The notes under the pieces were generated by a model. It saw only the letters and a program-made list of their open reading frames with translations. It made no database searches and had not been told where the DNA came from. Shown piece by piece: positions 6,672 to 57,183 of a stretch of DNA of 64,000 bases (position 1 is its first letter; each line of letters begins with the position of its first letter). Source of the stretch: Trypanosoma brucei (taxonomy: Eukaryota); NCBI GenBank assembly GCA_000002445.1, contig CP000066.1, positions 1,504,001 through 1,568,000 on the forward strand. The letters are read 5' to 3'. The translations under genes were made by a program, and so were the position numbers.

Positions 6672-6718
6672 TTATATTTATATATATTTATATATATTTA
6701 TATATATTTATATATATT
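6672..6718. repeat. (TATATATTTA)n decamer microsatellite, ~4.5 copies
   Basis: Direct reading: tttatatttatatatatttatatatatttatatatatttatatatat. Confidence 0.9.
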
Positions 6719-38700: not shown

Positions 38701-38912
38701 TCTGCGTATTCCTCCGTGGGAGTATTTTTCATACCTCTGAAGGCCCACCAATAAGGCACCATTGTTACTGACTCCCTACATTAAGGGGTGTTGTAGTGCA
38801 TTTGAAGGGAGAAGGCGGGTGCTGCGTGGAGAAAGCGAGAGGCAAAGGAAAAGGAAACAGAAAAAGCTGTGTTGGTCAGAGGAAGCGGGAGGAAGGTAAA
38901 TATCATCAGGTC

Positions 38913-41648
38913 ATGTCGGACAACAGAAAAGCAGTGGACGTTACCGTTCTGTCAGAGGATCCTAAGAAGAAAGAAAATGAGAAGAAAGCACGTGAGGCTG
39001 AGTCGCTGAAGATGAGTGAAGAGGATGAACGCATAAAAGGCCAAGTTGAACTTCTTGTTACGCGCGTGGGCGACAGCAACACTGAGTTGGCAGCGGTTGC
39101 GGTTGATCAACTGATTGATTTGCTGCGGACGCACACAAGCGGCAGCGTGGCATCGGTTCCAAAACCACTCAAGTATGTCCGCTCCATGTACGGGCAATTG
39201 GAGAGGGTTCAGAAAGAGACTACTAACCCTAAGCTCGCTGTTCGCCTCCACGACGTACTTTCTTTCGTGGCTATGACCATTGAGTTCCCTGATGGCCAGC
39301 GTCCGGCTCTAGAGCACAAATTGCTAGGTACTCAAGATGATCTCGCCCATTGGGGTCACGAGTATCTCCGCTTCCTCGCCGGGTGCATTAGTACAGAGTG
39401 GAAGGAACGTGTTAGCAAAGGAGAAAGTGTCGTCCACTTGGATGGCTTTATTCAACAAATTGTGAGCTATATGGTGAAACACCAGGATGAACCTACAGCC
39501 GTCGACCTCCTTATGGAAGTGGAGAACATCAAAGCAATCATTCCATTTATTGATGGTCACAACCACAGGCGTATTGCATCTTACTTGGCTGCTGCGAGTA
39601 AGTATTTAACTCGTCCAATGGACACTGAGGCTCTCCGTGTGGTGTATGATATTTATGTAAAAATGGAATCGTACACGGAGGCTCTCTTTGTAGCCTTGCA
39701 GTTAGGTGATCGTGCTGCCGTGGAGAACCTCTTCAAAATGTGCGAGAAGTCTTCTGTAAGCTTGCAAATGGCGCTGAGTTGTGCGCGCTATAGGTTTTTC
39801 CTTCCAAACGACAATGAGGAACAAGGAATTCTCTCTAGTGCTAACGGTAATATGAAACTTTCAGAGCTGTATCGTCACGTCGCAACGGAGCTTGATGCTA
39901 TGACTCCGCTGACACCCGAGGATATATTTAAGACAGGTCTTGACGGGAAGCAGTCCAGCAGTGCCTCTGACAGCTCCTTCAAACTTGCATGTTCCTTCGC
40001 TAGTGGTCTCGTAAACTGTGGATATGGTAAGGATATGTATTTGACAGGTGAGGAAGCCACGTGGCCCAGTGAGCAAACTGATAACCGCCTCTTCGCAACA
40101 ACATCCATGTTGGGGCTTATTCATCTATGGGATCACGCGGACGGTCTACTGGAAATTGAAAAATACCTCCACTCAGATACTGTCAATATCAGAGCCGGTG
40201 CTTGCCTGGCCACTGGTATTTCCCTATGCGGGGTGAGCCATCCCTACGACCCTGCTCTTGGACTCCTCAACGATTTTGTGTGTGCCCCGCATAAAGAGGT
40301 CAGGATTGGTGCTATTCTTGGCTTAGGTTACGCTTATGCAGGGTCGATGCGGGAGGAAATAAGGGAATTGTTGGTACCAATCCTTATCGATGGCGAACAA
40401 ACAATGGAGGTTCAGTGTTTGACAGCGCTTGCACTTTCAATGGTTTTCGTCGGCTCCACAGACGAGGGGATGGTCGAGACGATAACGCATATTCTTTTGG
40501 AGATGCCAGAAAAGGACCTAAAGGAATCCGCCACCTGCTACATTATCCTTGCACTGGGCTGCCTGTTTCTTGGACGGCAAGAAGCTGCTGATACTCTTCT
40601 GGACACTTTGCAAACATCTTCACCTATTATAAGACGTTATGCAGAGATCGTAGTGCGTAGCTGCGCCTACGCGGCAACAGGGAACGTGGTTGTCATCCAG
40701 AACTTCTTTCACGCAATCGCCGAGAACGATGAGCCTGAAGATACTGAGGTTCCTGCGGCCGAGGGCGACGGAAATGGTCAACAGCAGAAAAAAAACCGAC
40801 AGCAGCAGTCCACAGAGAATGCAGCGCATTTAAACTATAAGGCCGCTGCAGTACTTGGTATTGCATTGGTTGCCCTTGGAGAGGATATTGGAACAGAGAT
40901 GGCCAAGCGTTCAATCATTCATACACTTCTCGTCGACACGGTGAGCAAAGGTGAGGCAAATATATCGGGCAGGCATGCCATACCCCTGGCGTACGCATTG
41001 CTTTCAGCATCCAACCCCGGTATGCAGGTCGTAGAGACACTCAACCGCCTCTCACACGACAGCGACATGCTCACTGCAATAAATGCTATTGTGGCCATGG
41101 GTGTAGTGGCTGCAGGAAGTAACAACGCCAGGGTTGTGAGCAAACTACGGAACCTCGCTTTATATTACCAGAAAGATCGCTTCGCTTCTTATCTTTTCTC
41201 GGTGAGACTTGCGCAGGGGTTTACAATGATGGGTAGGGGCCATTTAACCCTTTCCCCATTGTTGAATGACCGTTCACTGGTTTCCCCCACGGCACTCATG
41301 GGGTTGCTTGTATTTTTACACAGCGCTCTGAACTTCGAGGAAATCATCCTCGGTAAGTACAGCTATATGGTCTCCAGTATTGCTCCCAGCATTAACCCGC
41401 GCATGGTGCTTGCAGTTGATGATCAGATGGAAGTTGTTAAAGATGGCGTGCAGGTGCGCGTGGGATTGCCTGTTGATACCGTCGCTGTTGCTGGGAAACC
41501 GAAATCCATCACAGGTTTCCAGACTCAAACCACACCAACGCTTATTAGCGTCACAGACAAGGTAGAGGTTGCCTCTCAGAAGTACAGGCCGGTTGCCAGC
41601 GTTGTGGAGGGTACATTTGTTGTGGAAGAGAAACCAAATATGGAGTAG
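38913..41648 (+). CDS. RPN1: 26S proteasome regulatory subunit RPN1 (PSMD2)
   Basis: ORF-track start 38796 is GTG; first ATG at 38913 (MSDNRKAV). Strong colinear similarity to PSMD2 as recalled: SEEDERIKGQVELLVTRV, SVPKPLKYVRSMYGQL, multiple PC repeats (GAILGLGYAYAGS), and the C-terminal GKPKSITGFQTQTTPTLI. Confidence 0.85.
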   Translation: MSDNRKAVDVTVLSEDPKKKENEKKAREAESLKMSEEDERIKGQVELLVTRVGDSNTELAAVAVDQLIDLLRTHTSGSVASVPKPLKYVRSMYGQLERVQKETTNPKLAVRLHDVLSFVAMTIEFPDGQRPALEHKLLGTQDDLAHWGHEYLRFLAGCISTEWKERVSKGESVVHLDGFIQQIVSYMVKHQDEPTAVDLLMEVENIKAIIPFIDGHNHRRIASYLAAASKYLTRPMDTEALRVVYDIYVKMESYTEALFVALQLGDRAAVENLFKMCEKSSVSLQMALSCARYRFFLPNDNEEQGILSSANGNMKLSELYRHVATELDAMTPLTPEDIFKTGLDGKQSSSASDSSFKLACSFASGLVNCGYGKDMYLTGEEATWPSEQTDNRLFATTSMLGLIHLWDHADGLLEIEKYLHSDTVNIRAGACLATGISLCGVSHPYDPALGLLNDFVCAPHKEVRIGAILGLGYAYAGSMREEIRELLVPILIDGEQTMEVQCLTALALSMVFVGSTDEGMVETITHILLEMPEKDLKESATCYIILALGCLFLGRQEAADTLLDTLQTSSPIIRRYAEIVVRSCAYAATGNVVVIQNFFHAIAENDEPEDTEVPAAEGDGNGQQQKKNRQQQSTENAAHLNYKAAAVLGIALVALGEDIGTEMAKRSIIHTLLVDTVSKGEANISGRHAIPLAYALLSASNPGMQVVETLNRLSHDSDMLTAINAIVAMGVVAAGSNNARVVSKLRNLALYYQKDRFASYLFSVRLAQGFTMMGRGHLTLSPLLNDRSLVSPTALMGLLVFLHSALNFEEIILGKYSYMVSSIAPSINPRMVLAVDDQMEVVKDGVQVRVGLPVDTVAVAGKPKSITGFQTQTTPTLISVTDKVEVASQKYRPVASVVEGTFVVEEKPNME

Positions 41649-43571: not shown

Positions 43572-46500
43572 ATGGAAGAGGACAAAAAACATTGGAGTTA
43601 CGACGCGGAAAACGAGGGTGTGTTACGCGACACCCCCTCTCCACTTCAGATACAAGAATCCATTGGGAACGATGGGAATACACAAACAGAAGGTAATGAG
43701 CACGGTGATTCTACAACAGAAGAAAATATCAGCAACAGCGAAGTAAAATGTGAAATTGAAATTGTGGAAAAGGTTCATCCGGATGCCGAAGAGGAAGAGG
43801 CACGTCTCAGAGCTGAAGAGGAGGCACGTCTGAGAGCTGAAGAGGAGGCACGTCTGAGAGCTGAAGAGGAGGCACGTCTCAGAGCTGAAGAGGAATCACG
43901 TCTCAGAGCTGAAGAGGAGGCACGTCTCAGAGCTGAAGAGGAGGCACGTCTCAGAGCTGAAGAGGAGGCACGTCTGAGAGCTGAAGAGGAGGCACGTCTC
44001 AGAGCTGAAGAGGAATCACGTCTCAGAGCTGAAGAGGAGGCACGTCTCAGAGCTGAAGAGGAGGCACGTCTCAGAGCTGAAGAGGAGGCACGTCTCAGAG
44101 CTGAAGAGGAGGCACGTCTGAGAGCTGAAGAGGAGGCACGTCTCAGAGCTGAAGAGGAGGCACGTCTCAGAGCTGAAGAGGAGGCACGTCTCAGAGCTGA
44201 AGAGGAATCACGTCTCAGAGCTGAAGAGGAGGCACGTCTCAGAGCTGAAGAGGAGGCACGTCTCAGAGCTGAAGAGGAATCACGTCTCAGAGCTGAAGAG
44301 GAGGCACGTCTGAGAGCTGAAGAGGAGGCACGTCTCAGAGCTGAAGAGGAGGCACGTCTCAGAGCTGAAGAGGAGGCACGTCTGAGAGCTGAAGAGGAGG
44401 CACGTCTCAGAGCTGAAGAGGAGGCACGTCTCAGAGCTGAAGAGGAGGCACGTCTCAGAGCTGAAGAGGAGGCACGTCTCAGAGCTGAAGAGGAATCACG
44501 TCTCAGAGCTGAAGAGGAGGCACGTCTCAGAGCTGAAGAGGAGGCACGTCTCAGAGCTGAAGAGGAGGCACGTCTCAGAGCTGAAGAGGAATCACGTCTC
44601 AGAGCTGAAGAGGAGGCACGTCTCAGAGCTGAAGAGGAGGCACGTCTCAGAGCTGAAGAGGAATCACGTCTCAGAGCTGAAGAGGAGGCACGTCTCAGAG
44701 CTGAAGAGGAGGCACGTCTCAGAGCTGAAGAGGAGGCACGTCTCAGAGCTGAAGAGGAGGCACGTCTCAGAGCTGAAGAGGAGGCACGTCTCAGAGCTGA
44801 AGAGGAGGCACGTCTCAGAGCTGAAGAGGAGGCACGTCTCAGAGCTGAAGAGGAGGCACGTCTCAGAGCTGAGGAAGAGGCACGTCTGAGAGCTGAAGAG
44901 GAGGCACGTCTGAGAGCTGAAGAGGAGGCACGTCTCAGAGCTGAAGAGGAAGAGGCACGTCTCAGAGCTGAAGAGGAGGCACATCTTGAAAGTAAAGACT
45001 CTTCCGTTAAACGACCCATCCAATGTGACGATGGTTGTAGGTGGATTAGGGCTGATGAGGTTGCAGCAGTTTCAGCAATTGAGGGGCCCACAGGTTCAGC
45101 TTTAGATGATTGTCTTTCGTATTCGTTTGTTGGTATAAGTTCCTCTGAAGTTTCTGTGGGAGGGGAAAACTGCGATGCATTTATGGGTAAAGGTGATACA
45201 TCATCGGCAAGTGATAACGCGCGTAGTGATCACTTGACCGGCCGTTCTTGTTCCAAAACAGTGCCCTTGAAACATCCGTTAACAAATAACATTCCATGCC
45301 ATGATGAGTTTGAAATTTGCATGGAGGAAGAGCTGCTGCGTATGGGTTACGCTGAATCGGATATCCACGTCCGCTACCTGGAACTTCACCACCACGAGAC
45401 GTCACGGGAGCCTGGGCGTTGTCTGTATCCTCCTCTTGAGAGTGGAGGTGGTGTCTTGTCCCCACAAAACATTCAAATTGGTTTCTTCAGAAGCAAGCAG
45501 GTCGTCATTGCTTCCCACTCCTTGGTATCCAGGAGAGTGGCTAAGCGCGAGAGGAGCGCTAAAGTTGGTGAGAGGGCTTTAAGCGACTCGCGGTTCTTCT
45601 TCGAGAATGAACTAATGTCCGACACTACGGTTACAACGGAAGACAGAAATTTACCTCACAATAGCCCTGATGAGCAACTTGTTGAGGAACAGAAACTAAG
45701 GACTAACCAAAATAACCTCGTGGCAGCTGCGCTCTCCCGTTTTACCCTTGGTGACCCTGTTCAAGTGTGGGAGCAGGCATGCGGGTTCTCCCTTGATCCT
45801 GTCCCCGGTATTAGGGATGGTGTGAGACAACTTCCTACACATGTGACTGGGGAGACGTCTTCGTATATATGGGCACACGAAATCGCAACTAACAAGCCAG
45901 TTCCCGCAATGAAAGCCTTTGACTCCGGCGTTCTGCTTCGTGTTGAATGTACGTCTATCGCGAGTCGACTCCTCGAGGTACACAAGGATGCAATAGATCC
46001 TGTCATTGTATCGGTGGCATTCTACAGTATGGGCTCCAGTACCAAGTTAAAGGTGTCTGAGACATTTTTTTTTGATTCGTGTGTCGACATTTTCTACCCT
46101 CACAAGGAGCGCAGTGAACTCAACAGAGAAAGTCGAGCGATGGCTTTTATTCCACAAGAGTTCTTCGCCTCCCTTTACCTCGTTATGCGTGTGTACCGAC
46201 CCTGCTGTGAGGATCAGGACAGTTATGTAGACCTCTACAGCAGACCCGACCGCTACAAAAGCCAGCAGGTTACTCTTATGAAGCAGAACACACAGCTGCT
46301 TGCCATGAAATCTGATATTTTTGAGGAAATTGGCTGGTACATGATGCCTTGTGTAAAGAATAAGAGTGTGGTTGAAACGTTGGAGACGACCAAATTGTAC
46401 CAAAGAGGGGCACCCGATGCACAGGTATTTCAATTGGTAGAAAATGAGCGTGCGCAGAAAGCATTAGCCACACTCCCTTTCTTCGCTTCTTTCAGCTTGA

Positions 46501-49500
46501 AGCATTGTAAGGGATGCGAAGTTGAGTTTCCGTCCCAGCATGATGAACCACTTCCTGAGGAAAATGAGACGATTATCAAGGTGTGCACCCGAAGCGATAC
46601 CGAAGTACAGGAGGAAACTTGCCGATTTGTTCCTTGCATCATACCCATACTAAACTCAGGGTTTTTCAACTCTTATCATAATGTGTACTACTTTCGTCTT
46701 GACAGGGTGAAACTGGTAAGCACTGGGATATTACGAACTGTTCCCTCGACGCACCGCACATTTGTCATGGAGATCAATGTAAGAGACAACGACACATCAT
46801 TGTCTGGTGAAAACCTACCGCTTTTGTACGGGAACAGGCTATCAGCAAAGACACTGCAGACGTCCGTGTGGGCCTCAGCTGTTCACAATTCTCTTGACTT
46901 TTCGTTGAGCGATGAGTTTAAGGTGCAACTGCCACTCCATCTTGGCGAAAAGTTCCATATATTTATAACCCTCTATGCCTGCTGTAAGAAAATGGACAAT
47001 TCTTCAGAAGAAATGCAGAAAATGCACAAGGTTGGTTATGCAGCATTTCCTATTATCCATAACGGTGTGGTGCGGGTGAAGGACGAGTGGACCATCAAGT
47101 TCATCGCAGCGGATCAAGTACTTGAAGGGTCGGAAAAATCATATCTAGATAAATTCTCCGAGGCAGCTGACGAGGCGCACCTTAATGGTGGTATCCCTGT
47201 CTTGTCTGTCAGTACGCAGACACGTACCTCTGTTCATGCCTCTAATGCCATCATTGCCAGTTTACTGAAGGAGATGCCGGCTTCGTTGGAGAGTATTTTG
47301 CGTAATGATAACTTGTTCCGCGTTTCCGGGAATTTGAAAGATATCTATAGGTCCGATGATGACGCAATTCACAGCAGTTTGATCCGTAAAATGCGGAAAC
47401 TTCCTCTGGCGGAGATTCTAGCTTTTTATCCACTTCTTTCGTTCTTCATACTGTCGCTGATCAGTTCACCGTCGAAAAGTGTCAGTTTACCCTGTCGAAC
47501 CGCAGCTTTGGAGGTACTTCTTGACATTACAATCAAAACGCAGCATTATGATCTTACAACCCGTTCGCGTCAAAAACAGCACTCAGCACGGGGTGTTTCC
47601 AAAACCTCCGTAACCCGCTTTCTCTATCACCATCTTACTAATGATTTACTGTATAATGGAGAGAAGCAACGCCTCTACGCCGGATTTGCAGAGACATGGT
47701 TACATCTACTGGTGGCGTGTAGACCGCATTCAGAGAACACTGACCAAGGTGCTGGGGATAAAACTGCGAAGGACGACCGTGAACAAGACAAGAGGAACAT
47801 TCGCAAGCGGATGGCAGATCTGTCGTGGTTTTTATTCGGTGTGATATTGCGTTCTATTTACATCTGGGCACTGGAGAACCCCAGCATTCCTCGAGCGAAG
47901 TTGTTGGACCCCGGTTTCTACTCGATTATTGGTGACCTCTGCGTAGAAGCTCTTGACGTTCTTGACGGTTTTGGAATCGATGATGTCCTTGTTCGGCGCA
48001 CGGCACTCTTTACGAGGAATCTGTTTAATTTCTGTGATCGCGGAAAGGTGCTTAACATCACCCAACGAATCGTGGAGTTCTTCGAAAAACGGCAAGATAT
48101 GGAGGGATTGGGCACGTTTATGAGTATCATTCTTGACGACGTGGATGTCGTTACGTTGATGATTCCTTCTTCGTCATACACCCAACCCGTCTTTCTTACT
48201 CGTATATTAGTACATGCCTTCTCGCTTTTACTCTCCAGTCCAAGCCAGGTCGTGCGTTCCTCATCTTCGGACGTGCTCTACAAATTCATTTGTCGTGTGA
48301 CAAATGGTGTGCGTTACCCCGCAACCTGTTTGCGCTGGATGGCCTCGCAACTCCTTGCTTTGGTACGAGAGGTTTCACTTCGGTGGAAAGCGTATGTGCA
48401 AATGTGTGAGAAGACAGAGTCTGTTGCTACAATTGAGGACAAGCGTCAACTCTGTGTTTCGATACTTTGGATAATTTATTATGCACCACCAGGTCGTCTA
48501 CGAAATTGGTTGAAGGGAGAGCGCGACAGTGACGTAATTTCTGGTCTTTTGAGCCTTGTAAGTGATGCGCAACACCTCTTTCGCTACACCGCGGGCGTTG
48601 ACAAGGCAAATCCACATGGTGTTAAGGAACCAACCCAATGGATGCGGGAGTGGGATGCGCGCATGTCAACGTTTGTTGCTGCAATTGGTGCATATGTGTG
48701 CAGCGCAGTCCTCCATGCTGTTCCTGATGCACTAAAGAGTCTCCGAACTGAGAAAGTGGATCCAATTGTGTTCCCGTTCTTTCATTTGTTAGAAGGTGTA
48801 TTGCATCTTGGAAATTCAACAGCCGCCCTTCAGATTGGTTCCTGTGCCCTACTGGAAGTTGCTCATTCTATCTTTCCGGAGATTTTGTGTTCCACTTCGC
48901 GGATGTGCAGCGGTATGGCAGTACTTGTGATGAGTCTGATGAGTAGTTGTTCGGTGCATGTGCGTTCAATGGCGGAGGAGGTGCTGTTCCTGATGTGCTA
49001 CGCCTGTTACACGGGGTGCAGGTCAGTCGCAAAAATCAAGGCGCCGATCTTCAGCGCAACGGTTTACGTGGCGGAGTCTAAAAAGCGTGACCTTCGTTTA
49101 GCTGGAGGTTTTCTCGAACTCCATCTCTCGAACTTAGTGCGAAAAGCTCAACAGTCGGGAGACAACTTCCCCCCGTTTTCCCAGTCGTATGTAAAGCGCT
49201 GTGAAGCTGACTCAGAAACCCCCGGTAATGAGGTTACCGCAGGGCGCCGGCATTGTGGAGAGTCACCATTTACTTCTGTCGAGCGGATGAGCCCGATACC
49301 ATCTTGCCTTATCAGCAACGGTGTGAATGGAATCGCATCACTTGTAGGAAACCGTAGGACAAGTGCTATTGTTGGAAGCGAACAGGGCAGCAACAACTGT
49401 AATGAACCACCCTCATTCGCAGAGGAGCTGGCTTCAGTGAGGGAAATATCCATGATGTTGTTCGGTAGCGTTCGGCAACTGATGCAGACCGAATCTCTTC

Positions 49501-50963
49501 GGCTGAAGGAGGCGAAGGCGCTCCAACACTTCAAACTTGCCGTGCAACTGTTGAGGGTGGGTGCAGTGCATGAATGCCTCAGATGGTTTCAGCGCCTTCA
49601 TGAACTGCACAAAGCGAACAACAACATGGGGGAGGCGGGCATTGTTTTGTTGTTTGTAGCGGCTCTTTGTTTTCGTCTAACAGAAGCCTTCTACCAAGTA
49701 AGAGGAAAGGAATCACGAGGAGCACGCATACCATTTATTGTGTTCTCCCACGTGTTCTGGCACGATTACGCGCGGCTTCTTCCTGAAGTGGACACACTTC
49801 TTACTGGTGATGTTTTGTATACGGTGGTGTCGGAGTTGAGGGTTCTCCCTAGCGACCCCTGCTTGTCACTTTCAGGACATGTAGAAGTGTTGCGAGGGGC
49901 TGCGTCGCTGTTAGATAAGGATCATTATAACATCTTCTCTGTAGGTGTGTTAAGCATTGTTGAGCGTTACTACCGTTTGTTGAATGACTTCAAAGCTGCC
50001 GCCTCAATCCACTCAGCGATGGCGGACGGTTGTTATGCGGTTTCTAAAGAAGATCGACAAAAGCGGGAGAATCACTGTTACTTTTTGCTTTGGGCTCGCA
50101 TGAACCGGGCAGAAGTTGAGTTACATGAGATGGATGGTAACGAATCCATGCAAAACGGATACAGCCTGCCTCTAAAATGCGTGTTTAAAATGCCAGCTAA
50201 AACTAAGTTGGAGCAGTTTTTGGAATGTAGCAAAGACTTCGTTAGGCCCCTTCTCAAAGACGCCACTCCTCTTGTTGTTACGGAAATGGCGGAGGAACAA
50301 AAAGATATGGGAGCTTTAGAAGCTTCGAAATTACCACCGGAAAATTGCTGTTTATTAAGCGTGTGTGAAGTCAACCCATGCTTTTCCAGTGGTAGGCGGA
50401 AGCTCACCGACAGTTACGATAGAAATGCTTCCCTCAATAAATTTGAGTACATGACGTACACATACGACAACAGTCGGGAGTATGGCGACGCCAAGCCGGA
50501 TAGTGCTTTACTAAGGAACCGTTTGGTTGTGTACAAATACCACCTTGAGCGCTCATTCCCTTCAACAACGAATGTCATAGACGTTGCCACTACACATATT
50601 GACCAGCTTGATACCGCGGCCACCGTTGCACACGTCCTGGGCAAAAGCATTGAAATGTTGCAGGCGCCGGTGGATAACGACGAACTTGTCGGCACACTGC
50701 TACGAGCGCTTACGCCCGGTGGGTTCGCGCGGCCAGGCGCTTATATAAAAGAAGTCATCACTACAATGAGTACGAATAGTGCTGTAATGACTCAGGTGCG
50801 ATCCCTCAGCAAACTACTGAAGACGAAGTTGACACTTTGCGAAAAGCATGACGCTCCACTAAATAGCACAGAGAATTACGCACTTGTTTTAAAGGCTGTG
50901 ATGGATATAGAGTGTACGCTTATTACTTTGGATGACAAGGTAGGGGTAGCCTGCAGTCAATAG
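43572..50963 (+). CDS. Giant (2463 aa) protein: ~48 tandem EEEARLRA repeats at the N-terminus, then a large body with C2/DHR-1-like and DHR-2-like segments (putative DOCK-family GEF-like protein)
   Basis: ATG at 43572. Uninterrupted 7.4-kb ORF. The repeat array is directly visible. The DOCK-like assignment is inference from motifs: a beta-rich segment VLLRVECTSIASRLLEVHKD...LYLVMRVYRPC (C2-like); near the C-terminus NNNMGEAGIVLLFVAALCFRLTEAF and HCYFLLWARMN...LKCVFKMPAKTKLEQFLE resemble DHR-2 core helices and the FRVGFYG...YKEPKxTKLxEI region of DOCK proteins. Confidence 0.6.
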   Translation: MEEDKKHWSYDAENEGVLRDTPSPLQIQESIGNDGNTQTEGNEHGDSTTEENISNSEVKCEIEIVEKVHPDAEEEEARLRAEEEARLRAEEEARLRAEEEARLRAEEESRLRAEEEARLRAEEEARLRAEEEARLRAEEEARLRAEEESRLRAEEEARLRAEEEARLRAEEEARLRAEEEARLRAEEEARLRAEEEARLRAEEEARLRAEEESRLRAEEEARLRAEEEARLRAEEESRLRAEEEARLRAEEEARLRAEEEARLRAEEEARLRAEEEARLRAEEEARLRAEEEARLRAEEEARLRAEEESRLRAEEEARLRAEEEARLRAEEEARLRAEEESRLRAEEEARLRAEEEARLRAEEESRLRAEEEARLRAEEEARLRAEEEARLRAEEEARLRAEEEARLRAEEEARLRAEEEARLRAEEEARLRAEEEARLRAEEEARLRAEEEARLRAEEEEARLRAEEEAHLESKDSSVKRPIQCDDGCRWIRADEVAAVSAIEGPTGSALDDCLSYSFVGISSSEVSVGGENCDAFMGKGDTSSASDNARSDHLTGRSCSKTVPLKHPLTNNIPCHDEFEICMEEELLRMGYAESDIHVRYLELHHHETSREPGRCLYPPLESGGGVLSPQNIQIGFFRSKQVVIASHSLVSRRVAKRERSAKVGERALSDSRFFFENELMSDTTVTTEDRNLPHNSPDEQLVEEQKLRTNQNNLVAAALSRFTLGDPVQVWEQACGFSLDPVPGIRDGVRQLPTHVTGETSSYIWAHEIATNKPVPAMKAFDSGVLLRVECTSIASRLLEVHKDAIDPVIVSVAFYSMGSSTKLKVSETFFFDSCVDIFYPHKERSELNRESRAMAFIPQEFFASLYLVMRVYRPCCEDQDSYVDLYSRPDRYKSQQVTLMKQNTQLLAMKSDIFEEIGWYMMPCVKNKSVVETLETTKLYQRGAPDAQVFQLVENERAQKALATLPFFASFSLKHCKGCEVEFPSQHDEPLPEENETIIKVCTRSDTEVQEETCRFVPCIIPILNSGFFNSYHNVYYFRLDRVKLVSTGILRTVPSTHRTFVMEINVRDNDTSLSGENLPLLYGNRLSAKTLQTSVWASAVHNSLDFSLSDEFKVQLPLHLGEKFHIFITLYACCKKMDNSSEEMQKMHKVGYAAFPIIHNGVVRVKDEWTIKFIAADQVLEGSEKSYLDKFSEAADEAHLNGGIPVLSVSTQTRTSVHASNAIIASLLKEMPASLESILRNDNLFRVSGNLKDIYRSDDDAIHSSLIRKMRKLPLAEILAFYPLLSFFILSLISSPSKSVSLPCRTAALEVLLDITIKTQHYDLTTRSRQKQHSARGVSKTSVTRFLYHHLTNDLLYNGEKQRLYAGFAETWLHLLVACRPHSENTDQGAGDKTAKDDREQDKRNIRKRMADLSWFLFGVILRSIYIWALENPSIPRAKLLDPGFYSIIGDLCVEALDVLDGFGIDDVLVRRTALFTRNLFNFCDRGKVLNITQRIVEFFEKRQDMEGLGTFMSIILDDVDVVTLMIPSSSYTQPVFLTRILVHAFSLLLSSPSQVVRSSSSDVLYKFICRVTNGVRYPATCLRWMASQLLALVREVSLRWKAYVQMCEKTESVATIEDKRQLCVSILWIIYYAPPGRLRNWLKGERDSDVISGLLSLVSDAQHLFRYTAGVDKANPHGVKEPTQWMREWDARMSTFVAAIGAYVCSAVLHAVPDALKSLRTEKVDPIVFPFFHLLEGVLHLGNSTAALQIGSCALLEVAHSIFPEILCSTSRMCSGMAVLVMSLMSSCSVHVRSMAEEVLFLMCYACYTGCRSVAKIKAPIFSATVYVAESKKRDLRLAGGFLELHLSNLVRKAQQSGDNFPPFSQSYVKRCEADSETPGNEVTAGRRHCGESPFTSVERMSPIPSCLISNGVNGIASLVGNRRTSAIVGSEQGSNNCNEPPSFAEELASVREISMMLFGSVRQLMQTESLRLKEAKALQHFKLAVQLLRVGAVHECLRWFQRLHELHKANNNMGEAGIVLLFVAALCFRLTEAFYQVRGKESRGARIPFIVFSHVFWHDYARLLPEVDTLLTGDVLYTVVSELRVLPSDPCLSLSGHVEVLRGAASLLDKDHYNIFSVGVLSIVERYYRLLNDFKAAASIHSAMADGCYAVSKEDRQKRENHCYFLLWARMNRAEVELHEMDGNESMQNGYSLPLKCVFKMPAKTKLEQFLECSKDFVRPLLKDATPLVVTEMAEEQKDMGALEASKLPPENCCLLSVCEVNPCFSSGRRKLTDSYDRNASLNKFEYMTYTYDNSREYGDAKPDSALLRNRLVVYKYHLERSFPSTTNVIDVATTHIDQLDTAATVAHVLGKSIEMLQAPVDNDELVGTLLRALTPGGFARPGAYIKEVITTMSTNSAVMTQVRSLSKLLKTKLTLCEKHDAPLNSTENYALVLKAVMDIECTLITLDDKVGVACSQ
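43808..44990. repeat. Tandem array of ~48 copies of a 24-bp unit (gaagaggaggcacgtctcagagct) encoding EEEARLRA, with sparse variants (gca to tca giving EEESRLRA; ctc/ctg synonymous)
   Basis: Read directly from the sequence between 43808 and about 44990. Unit identity is above 95%. The array is in-frame coding on + and yields a spurious 438-aa antisense ORF (SSALRRAS)n on the - strand. Confidence 0.95.
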
Positions 50964-52100
50964 CGATAAACCAATGTGGTGCGTGAGATATTAAAAGGTA
51001 TTTTAAGGTTAATATATTTTGGGGGTTGGATGGCGTCACCATTATTAATATTTTAATCATAGAAAATACTCTCGCGTCATATTGATGTAGTGGTTGGTGA
51101 TTTTTTTTGCTTTTGTTATTTTCGTGTGCTTTAAGATCCAGCGTTGCGGTAGTGTTCACCCTCCCCCCGATGGGGTCAAATATTTGGCCTTCAAAACAAA
51201 TGTTGAATTAACCTTTTGATGATGATATCATTTTCATTTTTTTCTCCATAACAATGAATGTTTCGTGTCTGATAAATTGATGGTGAGTGCGATGGGCGTG
51301 TTATCGCTACCATTCCTTTTGCTTTAATCACCGCCTCTCCTGTTGGATTTTCTCAATGTGTGAACGTGCTTCCATCACTCAGCACTGCTGCAGACACAGA
51401 CGAATACAATACTACAAATGAATACAGATATATATGTTGTTTCCCTCTTTTTGTTCCTTTTTTGTTTCAATTTTACCGTCGCTCAGCGGCTGTTTCTTCG
51501 ATCGTCCCTTGAATGTGATTCTCTTCATAACGCTGGGTTGATTGAGTGCTCTGCACTTGTATCTAATCGTGCTTAGTGGTGGAACAGTTTTAAATTATCA
51601 TCATGACTTGAAGGAGCTGGGAAGTCGGAATTGATTCCGGTATTTTTTAAAAAAAAATAGAAAGAGAAATTATATACAAGTGCCCCTCTCTTTTTTGTGT
51701 TTGTTTCTGTGCGTTTATTTGCATTATTAACAGGGAGAAGTAACCATAGGTAACGTGCTAAGCGGTTTAGGAGAGCTGTGAAGGGGCGTGTTTAATTCTC
51801 TTTTTTACGTGTGATCCCTTTTGTCGCTATCACTATTTCGTCAGTTCTATTATTATTGTTATTATCACTTGCTACTGTGTCATGTCTCCGTTGTTCTTCG
51901 TAATGTAGTAAAGGTTGAGCATTTGATAGAGTTTTTTTTTCTTATTTTATTGGTTAAGGGTGCTTGTATCACCAAAGGGGGAGCACGCGGAAGTGCGGTA
52001 GGGCGAATAGACGCGAAAAGAATTGCAAAAAAAAAAAGTAGTGAATACTCTGAACACTACATTACAGGGGCTATTAAGGCAATTTTTTTCTAGTGAAGAG

Positions 52101-53705
52101 ATGCCCATTCCGTGTAATTTCAAGGATCAAATAACAGGTGAAGTTCATATTCCCTCAACTTCCCGCGCAAATGTTACGTACAAACAATGTGAATGTCAGA
52201 CGGGTGTGCTTAAGATGCAAGATATGGAAACACAAACAGCGATTAGCGCTCTTCAGGCAGTCAACCGAAGCGACAAACAAGTTGGCCACGAGAAACCTCA
52301 GATCCAGGCAAATATCGATGGGCTGCAATATGTTTATGCTGGAGTAAATTACAGCGAGGAGGCTCTGGCTGATTTCCTGGAGGCGGCGAGGGAAGACGTC
52401 CTTGCTATATTATACCGCAATGTAAAAAACAGTGCGTTTGACAACTACGAGCCGAATTGGACGAAAAAGAGCACTGAACTCTCTGCTGTTGCAACTTTCC
52501 GGGCGTCGTATGCCGAGGAAAGAGATCTTCACGCCTTATCCGTGAGTTTTAACTCCAGCGGAACACTCTTAGCCGTTGCATACGGCCAAGTGGATACCGC
52601 AGGGTGGTGTAATGATACAGGCATGGTTGGTATATGGAACTTGTCACGAAATGATGTAAACGTTAATGAACCGCATCACATGATGGAAACTGATTCCTTC
52701 GTCACATGTGTTGCATTTCATCCATCACAGGCAACAGTGTTGGCAGTGGGACTGTACAGTGGTGAGGTGGTACTTTATAAAAATGTGACGGATGCGACAC
52801 CGATAGAGATGACAGCAGACGGATCTTCAACATCGCACAGAGAGCCCGTGACATTCCTGCAGTGGACTGAAAACTTACAGGAGACGCGTGATTCCCATCG
52901 GTACACGCTTTGTTCCGCGGGCCAGGATGGTCGTATCCTCTTTTGGACTATGGGCAATAAAATGGCGCAACCAACAGCCGCATTTATCATTAAAACCAGG
53001 AAAGGAGCAACGGTTGGTGTGCAGTCCGCTTGTTTCTCCCGTCCCGGGGGCTCCGCCGGTCGCATCACACCATCGAGCGACAGTGTTCTCGTCATTGGTC
53101 TTGAAAATGGTGATGTTGGCCGAGCCCGTCCTGGCGTCCTTGCTGCCCTTCCAACTCGAGCTGGAGAGTCGGAGGTTTCTCTTGAACTTGATTGGTTGTC
53201 CTCTCACAGGGGTCCTGTGCAGTGCGTTGATACCTCGCCTTTCTTTCACAATCTCTGCCTCACTTGTTCTTCTGATGGCAGTGCTCGGCTGTACAACATG
53301 CTAGAAACGGCAGCAGTTGCCACATTAGAGCCGTCTGCGGAGTCGAAACATTTCCTTTATGCTGCGCGGTTTAGTCCTTTTAGACCCAGTGTTATTGCTG
53401 TGGTTTCGCGCAGCTCATTCCTGCATATATATGACTTGCAGAAATCGCAACTTAAGCCTGTAGTAACGTTGGAAGCTGGGACAGATGGCGCTGCACTGAT
53501 GTGTGTTACTTTTAATCATGCTTCACCGGATTGGATTTGTACGGGGGACGTCAGTGGCTCCGTCCGCCTCTGGAAGCTGCCGTCGTCCCTCATGCAAACC
53601 ACCGACTTGGAGCGGGCTGCTGTGCGGGATAGCCGTGGCCGTGGGGGGAATGCGGAAGACAGTGAAAAGAACGCCGTCATATCTCTGTTTGGTTTCTCTC
53701 TCTGA
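52101..53705 (+). CDS. WD40 dynein intermediate chain, most likely the IFT-dynein (dynein-2) intermediate chain (WDR34/DIC5-like)
   Basis: ORF-track start 52023 is TTG; first ATG at 52101. Dynein IC signature LSVSFNSSGTLLAVAYGQVD...GMVGIWNL, followed by WD repeats (VTCVAFHPSQATVLAVGLYSGEVVLY; TLCSAGQDGRILFWT; DWICTGDVSGSVRLWK). The 534-aa length is close to WDR34. Confidence 0.6.
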   Translation: MPIPCNFKDQITGEVHIPSTSRANVTYKQCECQTGVLKMQDMETQTAISALQAVNRSDKQVGHEKPQIQANIDGLQYVYAGVNYSEEALADFLEAAREDVLAILYRNVKNSAFDNYEPNWTKKSTELSAVATFRASYAEERDLHALSVSFNSSGTLLAVAYGQVDTAGWCNDTGMVGIWNLSRNDVNVNEPHHMMETDSFVTCVAFHPSQATVLAVGLYSGEVVLYKNVTDATPIEMTADGSSTSHREPVTFLQWTENLQETRDSHRYTLCSAGQDGRILFWTMGNKMAQPTAAFIIKTRKGATVGVQSACFSRPGGSAGRITPSSDSVLVIGLENGDVGRARPGVLAALPTRAGESEVSLELDWLSSHRGPVQCVDTSPFFHNLCLTCSSDGSARLYNMLETAAVATLEPSAESKHFLYAARFSPFRPSVIAVVSRSSFLHIYDLQKSQLKPVVTLEAGTDGAALMCVTFNHASPDWICTGDVSGSVRLWKLPSSLMQTTDLERAAVRDSRGRGGNAEDSEKNAVISLFGFSL

Positions 53706-54067: not shown

Positions 54068-54310
54068 TTCCTGCTTTCGTGAGAATTTTTAACGACTGTT
54101 GGTACCAGACTCCGTGTGTACGTGCATCAATGAAATGCCAAGTAATTACGATCATGCACTTTTTACCTTTTTTGGCATAAAAAAATGTGCACAGTTCGTC
54201 TTGTTTTCCCTTCTTTGCTCCGGTTGATATCCATTTGTTTTGCTTAGCAAAGAGCAATTCCTCATCGTAGAGGCCGTAGTTGTTTGTCAAAACTAAGAGA
54301 GGAAGGTCTC

Positions 54311-54862
54311 ATGGTAAACTTGCGTCTTCAGGTGGCCGTAGTTGGCGCACCAACGGTCGGGAAAACTGCATTTGTGCAAATGCTTCACAGCAACGGCACA
54401 ACATTTCCTAAGAATTACCTCATGACGTTGGGTTGCGACTTTATTGTAAAGGAGGTTCCTGTTGATGATGATAATACGGTGGAAATGATAATATTTGATG
54501 TGTCAGGCCAGCGCGAGTATGAACCTATGGTTTCTTCGTACCTACAAAACACTGCAGTGTTCATAGTCATGTACGATGTTTCCAATAAAGTTACATTTGA
54601 GGCCTGCGCACGTTGGGTGAATCAGGTGAGGACGAACAGTAAAGAGAGTGTTGGAATTCTCATTGCAAATAAATCCGACCTCAGTGATAAGGCTGAAGTG
54701 ACGGACCGGCAGGGGAAAGATCTCGCAAATGCAAATAAGATGAAGTTCTACAAAATATCCACTTTGCGAGGTGTTGGCATCACTGAGCCCATTGATGAGA
54801 TTGCGCGGCATTACGTTGACGCATATCAAAAACGTATTGAACAACTCACCCAAATGAGGTAA
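54311..54862 (+). CDS. IFT27: Rab-like small GTPase IFT27 (RABL4)
   Basis: ORF-track start 54284 is TTG; first ATG at 54311. P-loop GAPTVGKT; switch-region similarity to IFT27 (YLMTLGCDFIVKEVPVDDDNTVEMIIFDVSGQREYEPMV versus human [36 protein letters not shown]); NKSD G4 box. No C-terminal prenylation Cys, as in IFT27. Confidence 0.75.
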   Translation: MVNLRLQVAVVGAPTVGKTAFVQMLHSNGTTFPKNYLMTLGCDFIVKEVPVDDDNTVEMIIFDVSGQREYEPMVSSYLQNTAVFIVMYDVSNKVTFEACARWVNQVRTNSKESVGILIANKSDLSDKAEVTDRQGKDLANANKMKFYKISTLRGVGITEPIDEIARHYVDAYQKRIEQLTQMR

Positions 54863-55952: not shown

Positions 55953-56400
55953 TGGTAAAGGTGAGATGAAGTTGTCAGGAAAATTTGAAAATTTACGGGT
56001 TTAAAGGCGTATGTGAGGGGGTTTTCGAATGTCAAATTCATTACTTCCGTTGTTTTCACATGAAAGGGGAGGAGAAAATAATATGGCTATCACCATCAAA
56101 AAAAAAAGGTACGTGGAAGTTGCTTCGTGCAAGGAAAAGGGAAGGTTCAGTTGTGTTGCTTTTTTTTTCCATGCGCTGACACCTTTATATAATATTATCC
56201 ATGGGAACCTTCCAGTGCCAACTAAAATTTGGTGGTGAATTTAATGCTCTCTGGTGATTTGCTGTACTTTCATGCCTCCACGCACACATACACACACACA
56301 CATTTTTACGTGGCTATTTGATTGTTAACTTTTTTTCTCTGAATCACTTATTCAAAGGGAGGAAAGGGTAGGTGTGAACGTTTCATTTTTGCAAGTATAC

Positions 56401-57183
56401 ATGGACGATCCAAGTTGGCAGCGCAATTGTGATATGCTGACGCATGCGTTGCAATCGTTGGAACGCAGTACCTCCCAAATAAAGCGCAGCACAAATAAAC
56501 TTGTCACCTTACGTGACATTGCGCAAGAGAGAGATAAGGTAAAGAAAGTAACGAGTGCAGCAAATGCGAAAGATGTGCATGCCGTTCACGATGCTTTGGC
56601 TTTTCTGGAAAAATATATGCGACTGCATCCCACGCAGCTGCGTGGACAGGGAGTGAAACTCAGTACGGAGGCTCAAGTTGTGCTAGAAAACTACAAAAAA
56701 TCATGTGATGTCTTCTATAAAAAGTGCATTTCACTGGAAGAATCATTACGAAAGAACAGTGCAACGACACGTGTGAGGATTGGGACTGGTGATGGAAGTG
56801 ATGTGGATGATTTTGATGATGAGGGAGAAAGTTTATTACCACGTGGAGCCACTGCGGGATCTGCGCAGCGGCAGGCATTTGAGGATGATCTCCATAACGA
56901 AATCATGGCTGAGAGGGTCCGTGAGACATCAGAGATAGCAGAGAGTGTAAGGGATATTAATGAGTTATTTAATCACATTAACTCATTAGTAGCAGAGCAG
57001 GGTGTGGGTTTGGAAATTATCGAGGAAAATGTTACGAGGTCGTCCGCTGCGACGAGGAATGCGGTGGGACATCTTCAACAGGCGCGTGATAGCCAACAGA
57101 GATCTGGACGTGACAAGATGTTTATATTTCTTATCGTTGTATTAATGATCATGCTATTGCTCGTTGCGTACCATAAAGTATGA
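56401..57183 (+). CDS. Syntaxin-type Qa-SNARE with C-terminal transmembrane anchor
   Basis: ORF-track start 56374 is GTG; first ATG at 56401. SNARE heptad region IAESVRDINELFNHINSLVAEQGVGLEIIEENV has the zero-layer Gln. C-terminal TM helix MFIFLIVVLMIMLLLVAYHKV. Confidence 0.75.
   Translation: MDDPSWQRNCDMLTHALQSLERSTSQIKRSTNKLVTLRDIAQERDKVKKVTSAANAKDVHAVHDALAFLEKYMRLHPTQLRGQGVKLSTEAQVVLENYKKSCDVFYKKCISLEESLRKNSATTRVRIGTGDGSDVDDFDDEGESLLPRGATAGSAQRQAFEDDLHNEIMAERVRETSEIAESVRDINELFNHINSLVAEQGVGLEIIEENVTRSSAATRNAVGHLQQARDSQQRSGRDKMFIFLIVVLMIMLLLVAYHKV

What the first reader, a model, noticed from the sequence alone, without database searches (positions are those of the whole stretch)
43572..50963. 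Giant protein fusing a ~48-copy EEEARLRA repeat array to a DOCK-like (C2/DHR-1 + DHR-2) body
The largest ORF in the window (2463 aa) has an unusual architecture. It opens with a perfectly periodic, highly charged octapeptide array about 390 residues long. That array is predicted to be a single long alpha-helix or coiled coil with an alternating acidic EEE / basic R.R pattern (SAH-like). The remaining ~2000-residue body has segments resembling the C2-like DHR-1 and the catalytic DHR-2 of DOCK/CZH Rho-GEFs (VFKMPAKTKLEQF, AGIVLLFVAALCFRLTEAF). Rho/DOCK signalling is thought to be sparse in kinetoplastids. A DOCK-like protein carrying such a repeat array would be notable, and its position directly upstream of IFT-dynein IC and IFT27 invites a flagellar or cytoskeletal hypothesis.
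Basis: partly seen in the sequence, partly recalled or inferred. Interest (0 to 1): 0.8.

Follow-up and report, generated by a model that had tools for sequence, protein, structure and literature searches.

The report
Trypanosome DOCK protein Tb-292, already known

Summary
ORF 43572-50963 (+) encodes 2463 aa and opens with 49 contiguous 24-bp units (EARLRAEE). The DOCK interpretation is supported. Pfam DOCK-C2 scores E 2.7e-21. DHR-2 lobe A matches in 11 of 11 family members. An ortholog profile hits the DHR-2 of DOCK7, DOCK9 and DOCK10, and two AlphaFold models retrieve DOCK structures first.

It is not new. The protein is 100% identical to 'Tb-292 membrane associated protein' of T. brucei TREU927. 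The repeat was published in 1994. A Leishmania zizimin was noted in 2013, and a unique canonical C2+DHR2 DOCK in Euglenozoa in 2017.

The repeat is not lineage-specific. Orthologs carry about 9-91 copies of 8-residue E/R units with the same i/i+4 charge pattern, which is the signature of an ER/K single alpha-helix (about 58 nm here).

Three smaller points may be new:
- The predicted transmembrane segments lie inside soluble DOCK helices.
- A conserved beta-domain sits upstream of DHR-1.
- The catalytic alpha10 'VNAG' sensor motif is replaced in Bodo and trypanosomatids.

Adjacency to IFT genes carries no functional weight. The likely role is a peripheral-membrane GEF, or GEF-like scaffold, for the divergent Rho-like GTPase TbRHP. 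This is untested.

The parts
43572..50963 (+). Complete ORF of 2463 aa. It is Tb-292 / Tb927.3.5530, the single DOCK-family protein of T. brucei.
   Evidence: ORF listing and translation. 100% identity and coverage to NCBI 'Tb-292 membrane associated protein [T. brucei brucei TREU927]'. Gene ID from PMC2254594.
43572..43790 (+). N-terminal acidic head, aa 1-73 (20 D/E, 5 K/R). It has no hydrophobic signal-peptide-like start and is poorly conserved.
   Evidence: Translation and composition. Conservation 0.03-0.05 per 50-aa block.
43797..44986 (+). Tandem array of 49 x 24 bp encoding EARLRAEE / EEEARLRA, aa about 74-471. Predicted ER/K-type single alpha-helix of about 58 nm.
   Evidence: TRF and pattern search with 0 expected by chance. 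There are 0.50 opposite-charge and 0.00 like-charge i/i+4 pairs per residue, and the pattern is conserved in orthologs.
44985..45371 (+). Poorly conserved linker, aa 472-600.
   Evidence: Block identity 0.14-0.25.
45372..45923 (+). Conserved N-terminal region, aa 601-784 (motifs GRCLYPP, IQLGFF, GDPVQVWE). Fold unresolved.
   Evidence: Block identity 0.35-0.48. Low pLDDT in model 2. No PDB sequence relative.
45924..46523 (+). Upstream beta-rich domain, aa 785-984. It contains the most conserved block of the protein (aa 801-900).
46668..47249 (+). DHR-1 (DOCK-type C2 domain), aa 1033-1226. Probable phosphoinositide/membrane-binding module.
47250..49415 (+). Central conserved region, aa 1227-1948, in the position of the ARM-like scaffold of DOCK proteins. 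It was not modelled here. aa 1880-1948 is a low-conservation, low-confidence linker.
   Evidence: Block identity 0.44-0.52, falling to 0.19-0.24. No Pfam hit. The scaffold assignment is by position only (inference).
47406..47462 (+). Hydrophobic segment LAEILAFYPLLSFFILSLI, aa 1279-1297. Probably one of the two 'TM' calls in older annotation.
   Evidence: Highest Kyte-Doolittle window, 2.12. '2 TM' reported in PMC2254594. Conserved in orthologs.
49416..50060 (+). DHR-2 lobe A (helical), aa 1949-2163. It includes the helix WFQRLHELHKANNNMGEAGIVLLFVAALCF.
   Evidence: Pfam PF06920 at aa 2002-2155. HMMER alignment to the lobe A helix of DOCK9 and DOCK10. Helices H109-H323 of model 1. The same motif occurs in canonical DOCKs.
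49635..49691 (+). Hydrophobic segment AGIVLLFVAALCFRLTEAF, aa 2022-2040. It is the second 'TM-like' stretch, but it lies inside DHR-2 lobe A.
   Evidence: Kyte-Doolittle 1.95. Aligned to the DOCK9/DOCK10 soluble-domain helix 'EAAMCY.H..AL'.
50076..50606 (+). DHR-2 lobe B (beta-sheets), aa 2169-2345. It includes VFKMPAKTKLEQF (nt 50181-50219).
   Evidence: Strands E329-E505 of model 1. Profile alignment to DOCK6, DOCK7, DOCK9 and DOCK10. Canonical counterpart FIYKEPKITRLVEI.
50613..50942 (+). DHR-2 lobe C (helical bundle), aa 2348-2457.
   Evidence: Helices H508-H617 of model 1, pLDDT 70-90. Alignment to lobe C of DOCK9 and DOCK10.
50709..50744 (+). Alpha10-insert loop LTPGGFARPGAY, aa 2380-2391. 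It occupies the position of the canonical nucleotide-sensor motif (DOCK9 ...SVQVNAGPLAY), and the sensor Val column holds Gly.
   Evidence: HMMER alignment. MAFFT alignment with Bodo, Papus and canonical DOCKs.
43775..45091 (-). Antisense ORF of 438 aa lying over the repeat array. It is a by-product of a stop-free repeat unit and not part of the gene.
   Evidence: ORF listing. It coincides with the array.

Best explanation
Shown: the ORF is Tb-292 (Tb927.3.5530), the single DOCK-family (zizimin-like) protein of T. brucei.

From N to C terminus it contains:
- an acidic head;
- a 49-unit EARLRAEE array with the charge pattern of an ER/K single alpha-helix;
- a linker;
- a conserved N-terminal region ending in a beta-rich domain;
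- the DOCK C2 domain (DHR-1);
- a long central region in the position of the DOCK scaffold;
- a three-lobed DHR-2.

Inferred: it is a soluble protein that attaches peripherally to membranes through DHR-1, which would explain the 1994 label 'membrane-associated' without transmembrane helices. It probably dimerises through DHR-2 lobe A, as other DOCKs do. It would use DHR-2 to bind the nucleotide-free form of the parasite's only Rho-like GTPase, TbRHP, and so promote GDP-to-GTP exchange. The roughly 58-nm stiff charged helix would act as a spacer holding the acidic head away from the membrane-bound catalytic body. Because the array is a long perfect repeat, it is also an immunodominant antigen.

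Identity and architecture: about 0.95. GEF for TbRHP: about 0.4.
For: Identity:
- 100% match to Tb-292 of TREU927.
- Gene ID with '49 x RLRAEEE'.
- The EARLRAEE repeat is attributed to Lee et al. 1994.

DOCK membership:
- DOCK-C2 at E 2.7e-21.
- DHR-2 lobe A in 11 of 11 members, best E 1.5e-14, and 28.1 bits against a cut-off of 26 for the T. brucei C-terminus.
- Profile hits to DOCK6 through DOCK10 at both domains.
- Foldseek: the top 18 hits are all DOCK DHR-2 domains.
- Published statements that Euglenozoa encode a unique DOCK with canonical C2+DHR2 and no Dbl GEFs, and that Leishmania has a zizimin gene.

Substrate logic:
- T. brucei has one Rho-like GTPase, TbRHP, and one RhoGAP. No GEF is named in that study.

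Peripheral rather than integral membrane association:
- One of the two hydrophobic stretches aligns to a lobe A helix of the DOCK9 and DOCK10 DHR-2 domains solved as isolated crystal structures.
- The N-terminus is acidic and hydrophilic.
- The L. infantum ortholog is listed as non-transmembrane in a proteomic table.

Single alpha-helix:
- 0.39-0.50 opposite-charge i/i+4 pairs per residue and almost no like-charge pairs in six species, although the unit sequence differs.
- The 8-residue period moves the only large hydrophobic residue, Leu, by 80 degrees per unit, so no heptad seam forms (from the sequence).
Against: - No experiment on GEF activity, substrate or localisation was found in the searchable literature.
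- The canonical alpha10 'V..VNxG' nucleotide-sensor motif is not conserved. The sensor Val column is Gly in T. brucei, Bodo and Leishmania, and Phytomonas has no hydrophobic residue in the loop.
- No trypanosomatid ortholog matches the Pfam lobe B or lobe C models, whereas canonical DOCKs do.
- TbRHP is a divergent GTPase with a mitotic and spindle phenotype and a cytoplasmic location. Nothing obvious links that to a membrane-associated DOCK.
- Fort & Blangy report that several Euglenozoa keep this DOCK without any Rac.
- Model 1 has low overall confidence (pLDDT 53).
Confidence: 0.55

Rival explanations
1. Pseudo-GEF or scaffold. The DHR-2 fold is kept as a binding platform but no longer catalyses exchange. 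The protein would act as a membrane-associated adaptor, with the long helix and acidic head recruiting partners.
For: The sensor Val motif is replaced throughout Bodo and the trypanosomatids, yet kept in the early-branching kinetoplastid Papus and in canonical DOCKs. Lobes B and C fall below Pfam detection. Only 36 hits at E<=1e-3 appear among 1.84 billion representatives, so the domain is very divergent. DOCK is retained in Euglenozoa that lack Rac, and the authors cite GEF-independent DOCK functions.
Against: The DHR-2 region is well conserved among orthologs (block identity up to 0.62), including lobe C around the loop (PGAY). All three lobes are retained. A one-residue shift in the loop alignment would place a hydrophobic residue (F, V, I or L) at the sensor position in most species. 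A Rho-like GTPase, RHP, does exist in trypanosomes and Leishmania.
Confidence: 0.28
2. Active GEF, but for a GTPase outside the Rho family, such as another Ras-like or kinetoplastid-specific small GTPase. The altered alpha10 loop would reflect a change of substrate.
For: The same loop divergence. DOCK is present without Rac in several Euglenozoa, and the authors suggest 'additional activities' of DHR2.
Against: No DOCK is known to act outside Rho/Rac/Cdc42 (established knowledge). No candidate was identified here.
Confidence: 0.1
3. Integral-membrane repetitive surface antigen, as in the older annotation (2 TM, 'membrane associated protein'), with the repeat exposed to the host.
For: A 2007 repeat screen listed it with 2 predicted TM segments among candidate surface antigens. 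The 2017 serology paper describes C-terminal transmembrane segments and shows that the Leishmania ortholog is antigenic. Two segments have Kyte-Doolittle averages of about 2.
Against: Segment 2022-2040 is a DHR-2 lobe A helix that aligns to DOCK9 and DOCK10 DHR-2 domains crystallised as isolated soluble domains. The whole body is a DOCK, a cytosolic protein family. There is no N-terminal hydrophobic signal. The L. infantum ortholog is tabulated as non-transmembrane. Many intracellular repeat proteins of trypanosomatids are antigenic (established knowledge).
Confidence: 0.03
4. Flagellar or IFT-linked function, suggested by the position directly upstream of the dynein-2 intermediate chain and IFT27.
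For: The neighbours are indeed WDR34-like and IFT27-like.
Against: The upstream neighbour is proteasome RPN1, and a syntaxin lies further downstream. Trypanosomatid polycistronic units do not group genes by function (established knowledge). Nothing in the protein points to the flagellum.
Confidence: 0.04
5. The repeat forms a dimeric coiled coil, an extra dimerisation device, rather than a single alpha-helix.
For: DOCK proteins are dimers, so two arrays would lie close together (established knowledge). Leu and Ala make up 35% of the array.
Against: An 8-residue period gives no heptad or hendecad seam, because Leu precesses 80 degrees per unit. The i/i+4 E-R network is saturated at 0.50 per residue. 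In the orthologs the Leu is mostly replaced by Q, R or A, so there is no conserved hydrophobic position.
Confidence: 0.15

Closest known systems
Zizimin-type DOCK proteins: DOCK-C (DOCK6/7/8) and DOCK-D (DOCK9/10/11)
   Same: The domain order is C2 (DHR-1), long helical middle, then a C-terminal three-lobed DHR-2. All sequence-profile hits in the PDB are to DOCK6, 7, 8, 9 and 10. The best fold hits for DHR-2 are DOCK10 and DOCK9. The literature already calls the Leishmania gene a zizimin.
   Different: There is no PH domain and no DOCK_C-D_N Pfam hit. It has an N-terminal 387-aa charged repeat helix. Lobes B and C are too divergent for Pfam. The alpha10 'VNAG' sensor motif is replaced by 'P-x-G-hydrophobic-x-x-P-G-x-Y'. 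The only available substrate candidate is the divergent TbRHP rather than Cdc42 or Rac.
DOCK-A/B proteins: DOCK180/DOCK1, DOCK2, DOCK5
   Different: No SH3 domain or DOCK_N Pfam match. There are no sequence-level profile hits to this subgroup. An ELMO partner was not examined.
ER/K single alpha-helix (SAH) domains, for example the lever-arm extensions of myosin VI and X (own knowledge)
   Same: Composition is about 63% E+R, with a saturated i/i+4 opposite-charge network and no hydrophobic seam.
   Different: Here it is a near-perfect tandem array of one 8-residue unit, 49 copies in T. brucei and 9-91 in orthologs. It is homogenised at the DNA level and much longer than typical SAH segments. 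Its helical, monomeric state is untested.
Trypanosomatid tandem-repeat antigens: Tb-291, and Leishmania Lci12, which is the ortholog
   Same: It is the same protein family as Lci12, and the 8-aa repeat is used as a serodiagnostic antigen. Tb-291 shares the EARLRAEE repeat.
   Different: Those papers treat the protein as a membrane or repeat antigen and make no mention of DOCK, as far as the passages I read show.

Membership tests
DOCK (CZH) family | DHR-1: a DOCK-type C2 domain | tested here: met
DOCK (CZH) family | DHR-2 lobe A (helical) | tested here: met
   PF06920 scores 24.3 bits in the full protein, below the cut-off of 26, but 28.1 bits on the C-terminal 623 aa. It matches 11 of 11 members, best E 1.5e-14. 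The motif WFQRLHELHKANNNMGEAGI parallels WLRKLMKFHKANGQIMEAAM of a canonical DOCK.
DOCK (CZH) family | DHR-2 lobes B and C, detected by curated sequence models (PF20422, PF20421) | tested here: not met
   No hit in T. brucei or in any of 10 orthologs at E<=0.05. Canonical DOCKs retrieved in the same session hit both models at 1e-17 to 1e-30.
DOCK (CZH) family | DHR-2 lobes B and C, detected by family profile and by fold | tested here: met
   An ortholog profile aligns about 170 residues of lobes B and C to DOCK10 (5.8e-6), DOCK9 (1.1e-5) and DOCK7 (3.5e-5). Model 1 runs helical lobe, beta lobe, helical bundle. The top 18 Foldseek hits are all DOCK DHR-2 domains, E 6.5e-12 to 1e-6, with TMt 0.54-0.57 to lobe B/C-only structures. 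The model's overall pLDDT is low, at 53.
DOCK (CZH) family | Domain order: DHR-1 upstream of a long middle region, with DHR-2 at the C-terminus | tested here: met
   C2 lies at aa 1033-1226 and DHR-2 at aa about 1949-2457 of 2463.
DOCK (CZH) family | Nucleotide-sensor Val in the alpha10 insert of lobe C (DOCK9 V1951; own knowledge of Yang et al. 2009). This defines the catalytic mechanism rather than homology. | tested here: inconclusive
   In both the HMMER and the MAFFT alignment the Val column is Gly in T. brucei (LTPGGFARPGAY), Bodo and Leishmania. A hydrophobic residue follows in most species but not in Phytomonas. Papus and canonical DOCKs keep V..VNxG. A loop alignment at about 15% identity could be off by one residue.
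DOCK (CZH) family | Guanine-nucleotide exchange activity on a Rho-family GTPase | not testable with these tools
   This needs a biochemical assay with TbRHP (Tb927.10.6240).
DOCK (CZH) family | Homodimerisation through DHR-2 lobe A | not tested
   No multimer prediction tool was available.
ER/K single alpha-helix (SAH) | Dense E and R/K content with opposite charges at i/i+4 and few like charges | tested here: met
   0.50 opposite and 0.00 like pairs per residue in T. brucei. In five orthologs the values are 0.39-0.50 opposite and 0.00-0.08 like.
ER/K single alpha-helix (SAH) | No heptad-type hydrophobic seam | tested here: met
   The strict 8-residue period moves Leu 80 degrees per unit on a 100-degree-per-residue helix. 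The Leu position is not conserved in orthologs.
ER/K single alpha-helix (SAH) | Stable, monomeric helix in solution | not testable with these tools
   This needs CD, AUC or SAXS.
Integral membrane protein (the older 'membrane associated / 2 TM' annotation) | Genuine transmembrane helices or a signal peptide | tested here: not met
   The N-terminus is acidic and hydrophilic. Hydrophobic segment 2022-2040 aligns to a helix of the crystallised DHR-2 lobe A of DOCK9 and DOCK10. Segment 1279-1297 lies in the conserved region after DHR-1 and remains unassigned. The L. infantum ortholog is tabulated as non-TM.

The most novel reading that the evidence does not exclude
In the lineage leading to Bodo and the trypanosomatids, the only DOCK replaced its canonical nucleotide-sensor motif, while the early-branching Papus still has VNAG. 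Separately, African trypanosomes and Leishmania lack a canonical Rho/Rac. On this reading DHR-2 either exchanges nucleotide on the divergent RHP GTPase by a modified mechanism or works independently of GEF activity. The same lineage added an E/R-rich helix that trypanosomatids homogenised into a stiff single-helix arm of 9-91 units, about 58 nm in T. brucei, which would place an N-terminal head far from the membrane-bound body. That would make a DOCK with a built-in molecular ruler.
Probability: 0.3. Interest if true: 0.55.

Novelty: already known. Interest (0 to 1): 0.25.

Why it matters
Mostly this corrects the record. The finding is a rediscovery of Tb-292 (1994) and of the unique euglenozoan DOCK (2013, 2017).

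Its remaining value is in joining three lines of literature and annotation that the papers I could read do not connect: the EARLRAEE antigen, the kinetoplastid DOCK and the orphan Rho-like GTPase TbRHP. T. brucei has one Rho-like GTPase, one RhoGAP and one DOCK, so this is a minimal Rho module in which GEF-substrate pairing can be tested directly.

The old 'membrane protein with TM segments' label, which still shapes how the Leishmania ortholog is described as a diagnostic antigen, is probably wrong.

If the altered catalytic loop proves real, it would bear on the open question raised by Fort & Blangy of what a DOCK does in organisms without Rac.

Tried and rejected
- A word-indexed homolog search with the DHR-2 alignment returned nothing, not even the family itself. 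I treated this as a tool failure and replaced it with the exhaustive representative search.
- A profile of aa 540-1032 against PDB sequences gave no hit at E<=1.
- Profile-profile comparison of the upstream beta-domain with the DHR-1 C2 gave probability 0.25%. The idea of a recognisable internal C2 duplication is therefore not supported by sequence. It rests only on fold hits to tandem-C2 proteins and is left open.
- The Pfam hits DUF2345 and Fibrinogen_BP, and the PDB profile hits to ensconsin, IF-2, circumsporozoite protein and similar, all fall on the charged repeat. I rejected them as low-complexity artefacts.
- The single-sequence PDB hit to designed leucine-rich-repeat proteins (E 0.029) is a chance match to 'LHELH.NNN.GE.G'.
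- The 1994 paper is not held, and neither are the supplements of Fort & Blangy. I could not read the original localisation data or the list of Rac-less species.
- Literature searches for DOCK/DHR-2 with Trypanosoma, for the gene IDs and for the Leishmania ortholog IDs found no functional study.
- One Pfam call failed on the size limit and was rerun smaller.
- I considered and rejected a flagellar reading based on gene adjacency.
Full report
**1. The observation**

It is the largest ORF in the window.

Tandem Repeats Finder reports one array at 43797-44986, with a 24-bp unit, 49.5 copies, 95% matches and no indels. A pattern search finds 49 contiguous copies, none elsewhere in the window and none in 100 shuffles. 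Thirty-two units are identical. Eight differ by a synonymous CTC-to-CTG change, seven carry GAATCA (Ala to Ser), and one extra GAA codon shifts the phase at 44949-44951. The array is therefore near-perfect rather than perfect.

The 438-aa antisense ORF at 43775..45091 is simply the reverse reading of a stop-free repeat.

**2. Identity**

The protein is 100% identical over its full length to NCBI 'Tb-292 membrane associated protein [Trypanosoma brucei brucei TREU927]', on a 1.65-Mb chromosome. A 2007 repeat survey lists it as Tb927.3.5530, '49 x RLRAEEE, 2 TM'.

[quoted passage not shown] It is cited, but the paper is not held. The Leishmania ortholog, Lci12 / LinJ.29.0110, is a serodiagnostic repeat antigen.

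**3. Is the body a DOCK?**

Yes.

DHR-1:
- Pfam DOCK-C2 matches aa 1033-1226 at E 2.7e-21, 76.8 bits against a cut-off of 33.6. It also matches all 10 full-length orthologs.

DHR-2:
- Lobe A scores 24.3 bits in the whole protein, just under the cut-off of 26, and 28.1 bits on the C-terminal 623 aa. All 11 family members match it, best E 1.5e-14.
- No ortholog matches the Pfam lobe B or lobe C models.
- A profile of eight orthologs nevertheless aligns about 170 residues of lobes B and C to DOCK10 (5.8e-6), DOCK9 (1.1e-5), DOCK7 (3.5e-5), DOCK6 and DOCK8.
- The C-terminal model has low confidence (pLDDT 53), but it shows the expected order of helical lobe, beta lobe and helical bundle.
- Its 18 best Foldseek hits are all DOCK DHR-2 domains (E 6.5e-12 to 1e-6). 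The next hits are TPR proteins at about 1e-2.

- VFKMPAKTKLEQF (aa 2204) corresponds to FIYKEPKITRLVEI of a canonical DOCK.
- AGIVLLF... (aa 2022) continues the lobe A helix WFQRLHELHKANNNMGEAGI, compared with WLRKLMKFHKANGQIMEAAM.

Neither motif belongs to DHR-1.

**4. It is already known**

- Pakes et al. [quoted passage not shown]
- Fort & Blangy 2017 state that Euglenozoa have no Dbl GEFs but 'unique DOCK proteins' with canonical C2 and DHR2. They add that ten species keep the DOCK without any Rac.
- My profile hits go only to DOCK-C/D members, which agrees with the zizimin assignment.

**5. The repeat**

It is not specific to T. brucei. Orthologs carry 8-residue E/R/A units such as EAEERARQ, AEERARKE, EAEERAQR and REAEEQAR:
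- T. congolense: about 20 copies
- T. grayi: about 9
- T. conorhini: at least 10
- T. cruzi: about 70
- L. mexicana: about 78
- L. major: about 91
- L. martiniquensis: about 37
- L. donovani: about 22

Bodo saltans and several unnamed environmental relatives have a degenerate E/R/A-rich N-terminal stretch. Canonical DOCKs have none. Gene models without the array are probably truncated or collapsed, because L. donovani has both versions (P0009 and P0013). This applies to T. vivax, Leptomonas, L. tarentolae, one L. donovani entry and Phytomonas.

In every species examined the array has 0.39-0.50 opposite-charge i/i+4 pairs per residue and almost no like-charge pairs, although the unit sequences differ. 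The strict 8-residue period lets the single Leu precess 80 degrees per unit, and that Leu is not conserved between species. This pattern points to an ER/K single alpha-helix rather than a coiled coil. At 0.15 nm per residue, 387 residues would span about 58 nm. The helical, monomeric state is inferred, not shown.

**6. Points that may be new**

(a) The 'TM segments'. The two most hydrophobic 19-residue windows are 1279-1297 and 2022-2040. The second aligns to a lobe A helix of the DOCK9 and DOCK10 DHR-2 domains, which were solved as isolated crystal structures. The N-terminus is acidic. The L. infantum ortholog is tabulated as non-transmembrane. 'Membrane-associated' is therefore better explained by DHR-1, which is the membrane-targeting C2 in DOCK180 and DOCK8 (titles of 3l4c and 7cly).

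(c) The catalytic loop. DOCK9 V1951 is the V of QVNAGP, at position 347 of chain 2wm9_A. The assignment as nucleotide sensor is from my own knowledge of Yang et al. 2009. That column holds Gly in T. brucei (LTPGGFARPGAY), Bodo (LTPMGVVPPGTY) and Leishmania (LSPKGLPPGAY). Phytomonas has LSINNRPAGVY, with no hydrophobic residue. Papus, an early-branching kinetoplastid, keeps V..VNxG, as do canonical DOCKs. The exhaustive search found only 36 proteins at E<=1e-3 among 1.84 billion representatives, so the domain is strongly diverged. A one-residue misalignment cannot be excluded, and I score this feature as inconclusive.

**7. Mechanism**

T. brucei has one divergent Rho-like GTPase, TbRHP (needed for spindle formation and mitosis), and one RhoGAP, TbOCRL. 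No GEF is named in that study, which does not mention DOCK.

The most economical model is that Tb-292 is the missing GEF. It would be recruited to membranes by DHR-1 and dimerise like other DOCKs. DHR-2 would act on TbRHP, and the charged helix would serve as a spacer.

The main rival is a GEF-independent scaffold. Three results support it: the altered loop, the divergence of lobes B and C, and retention of the DOCK in Rac-less species. No experimental data on activity, substrate or localisation were found.

**8. Context**

The neighbours are RPN1 upstream, then WDR34 (dynein-2 IC), IFT27 and a syntaxin downstream. All are on the + strand, as expected for a trypanosome polycistronic unit. The mixture of functions, together with what is known of trypanosomatid gene order, gives adjacency no weight.

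**9. Verdict**

The gene, its repeat and its DOCK nature are all on record, so novelty is 'already known' and interest is low. The residual interest lies in the untested DOCK-TbRHP pairing, the likely wrong transmembrane annotation, and the possibly altered catalytic loop.

Noticed in passing
window 50709-50744 (aa 2380-2391): The alpha10-insert loop reads LTPGGFARPGAY where canonical DOCKs and the early-branching kinetoplastid Papus have the ..V..VNxG.. nucleotide-sensor motif. The replacement is shared by Bodo and all trypanosomatids, and Phytomonas lacks even a hydrophobic residue there.
   Followed up: partly
window 45924-46523 (aa 785-984): The most conserved block of the protein lies upstream of the Pfam C2 hit, in a confidently modelled beta-rich domain. 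It has no sequence relative in the PDB and no profile similarity to DHR-1. It seems to co-align with the N-terminal half of DOCK5.
   Followed up: partly
window 47406-47462 and 49635-49691: These two hydrophobic stretches probably account for the '2 TM' and 'membrane protein' annotation. The second is a DHR-2 lobe A helix, so the transmembrane annotation looks like a false positive.
   Followed up: partly
window 43775-45091 (- strand): A 438-aa antisense ORF covers the repeat array. It is a by-product of a repeat unit with no stop codon in that frame, not a gene.
   Followed up: yes
window 43797-44986: The variant units are interspersed irregularly rather than clustered: 7 with GAATCA (Ala to Ser) and 8 with a synonymous CTG. 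One extra GAA codon sits near the 3' end. This pattern is expected from unequal exchange or gene conversion within the array.
   Followed up: no
orthologs P0005, P0006, P0009, P0010, P0014 compared with P0013: Several ortholog gene models lack the repeat array and the N-terminus, while another L. donovani entry has them. These are probably assembly collapse or truncated models. Reported copy-number variation of the 'tb-292-like' gene in L. infantum populations (PMC8715437) could partly reflect read depth over the repeat.
   Followed up: no
window 38796-41648, 52023-53705, 54284-54862, 56374-57183: The neighbouring genes are proteasome RPN1, dynein-2 intermediate chain WDR34 (E 6e-64 to the human protein), IFT27-like GTPase and a syntaxin-like SNARE. 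All lie on the + strand in one polycistronic run.
   Followed up: yes
window 6673-6718: A short perfect AT-rich microsatellite, TATATTTATA x 4.6, lies in an intergenic stretch.
   Followed up: no
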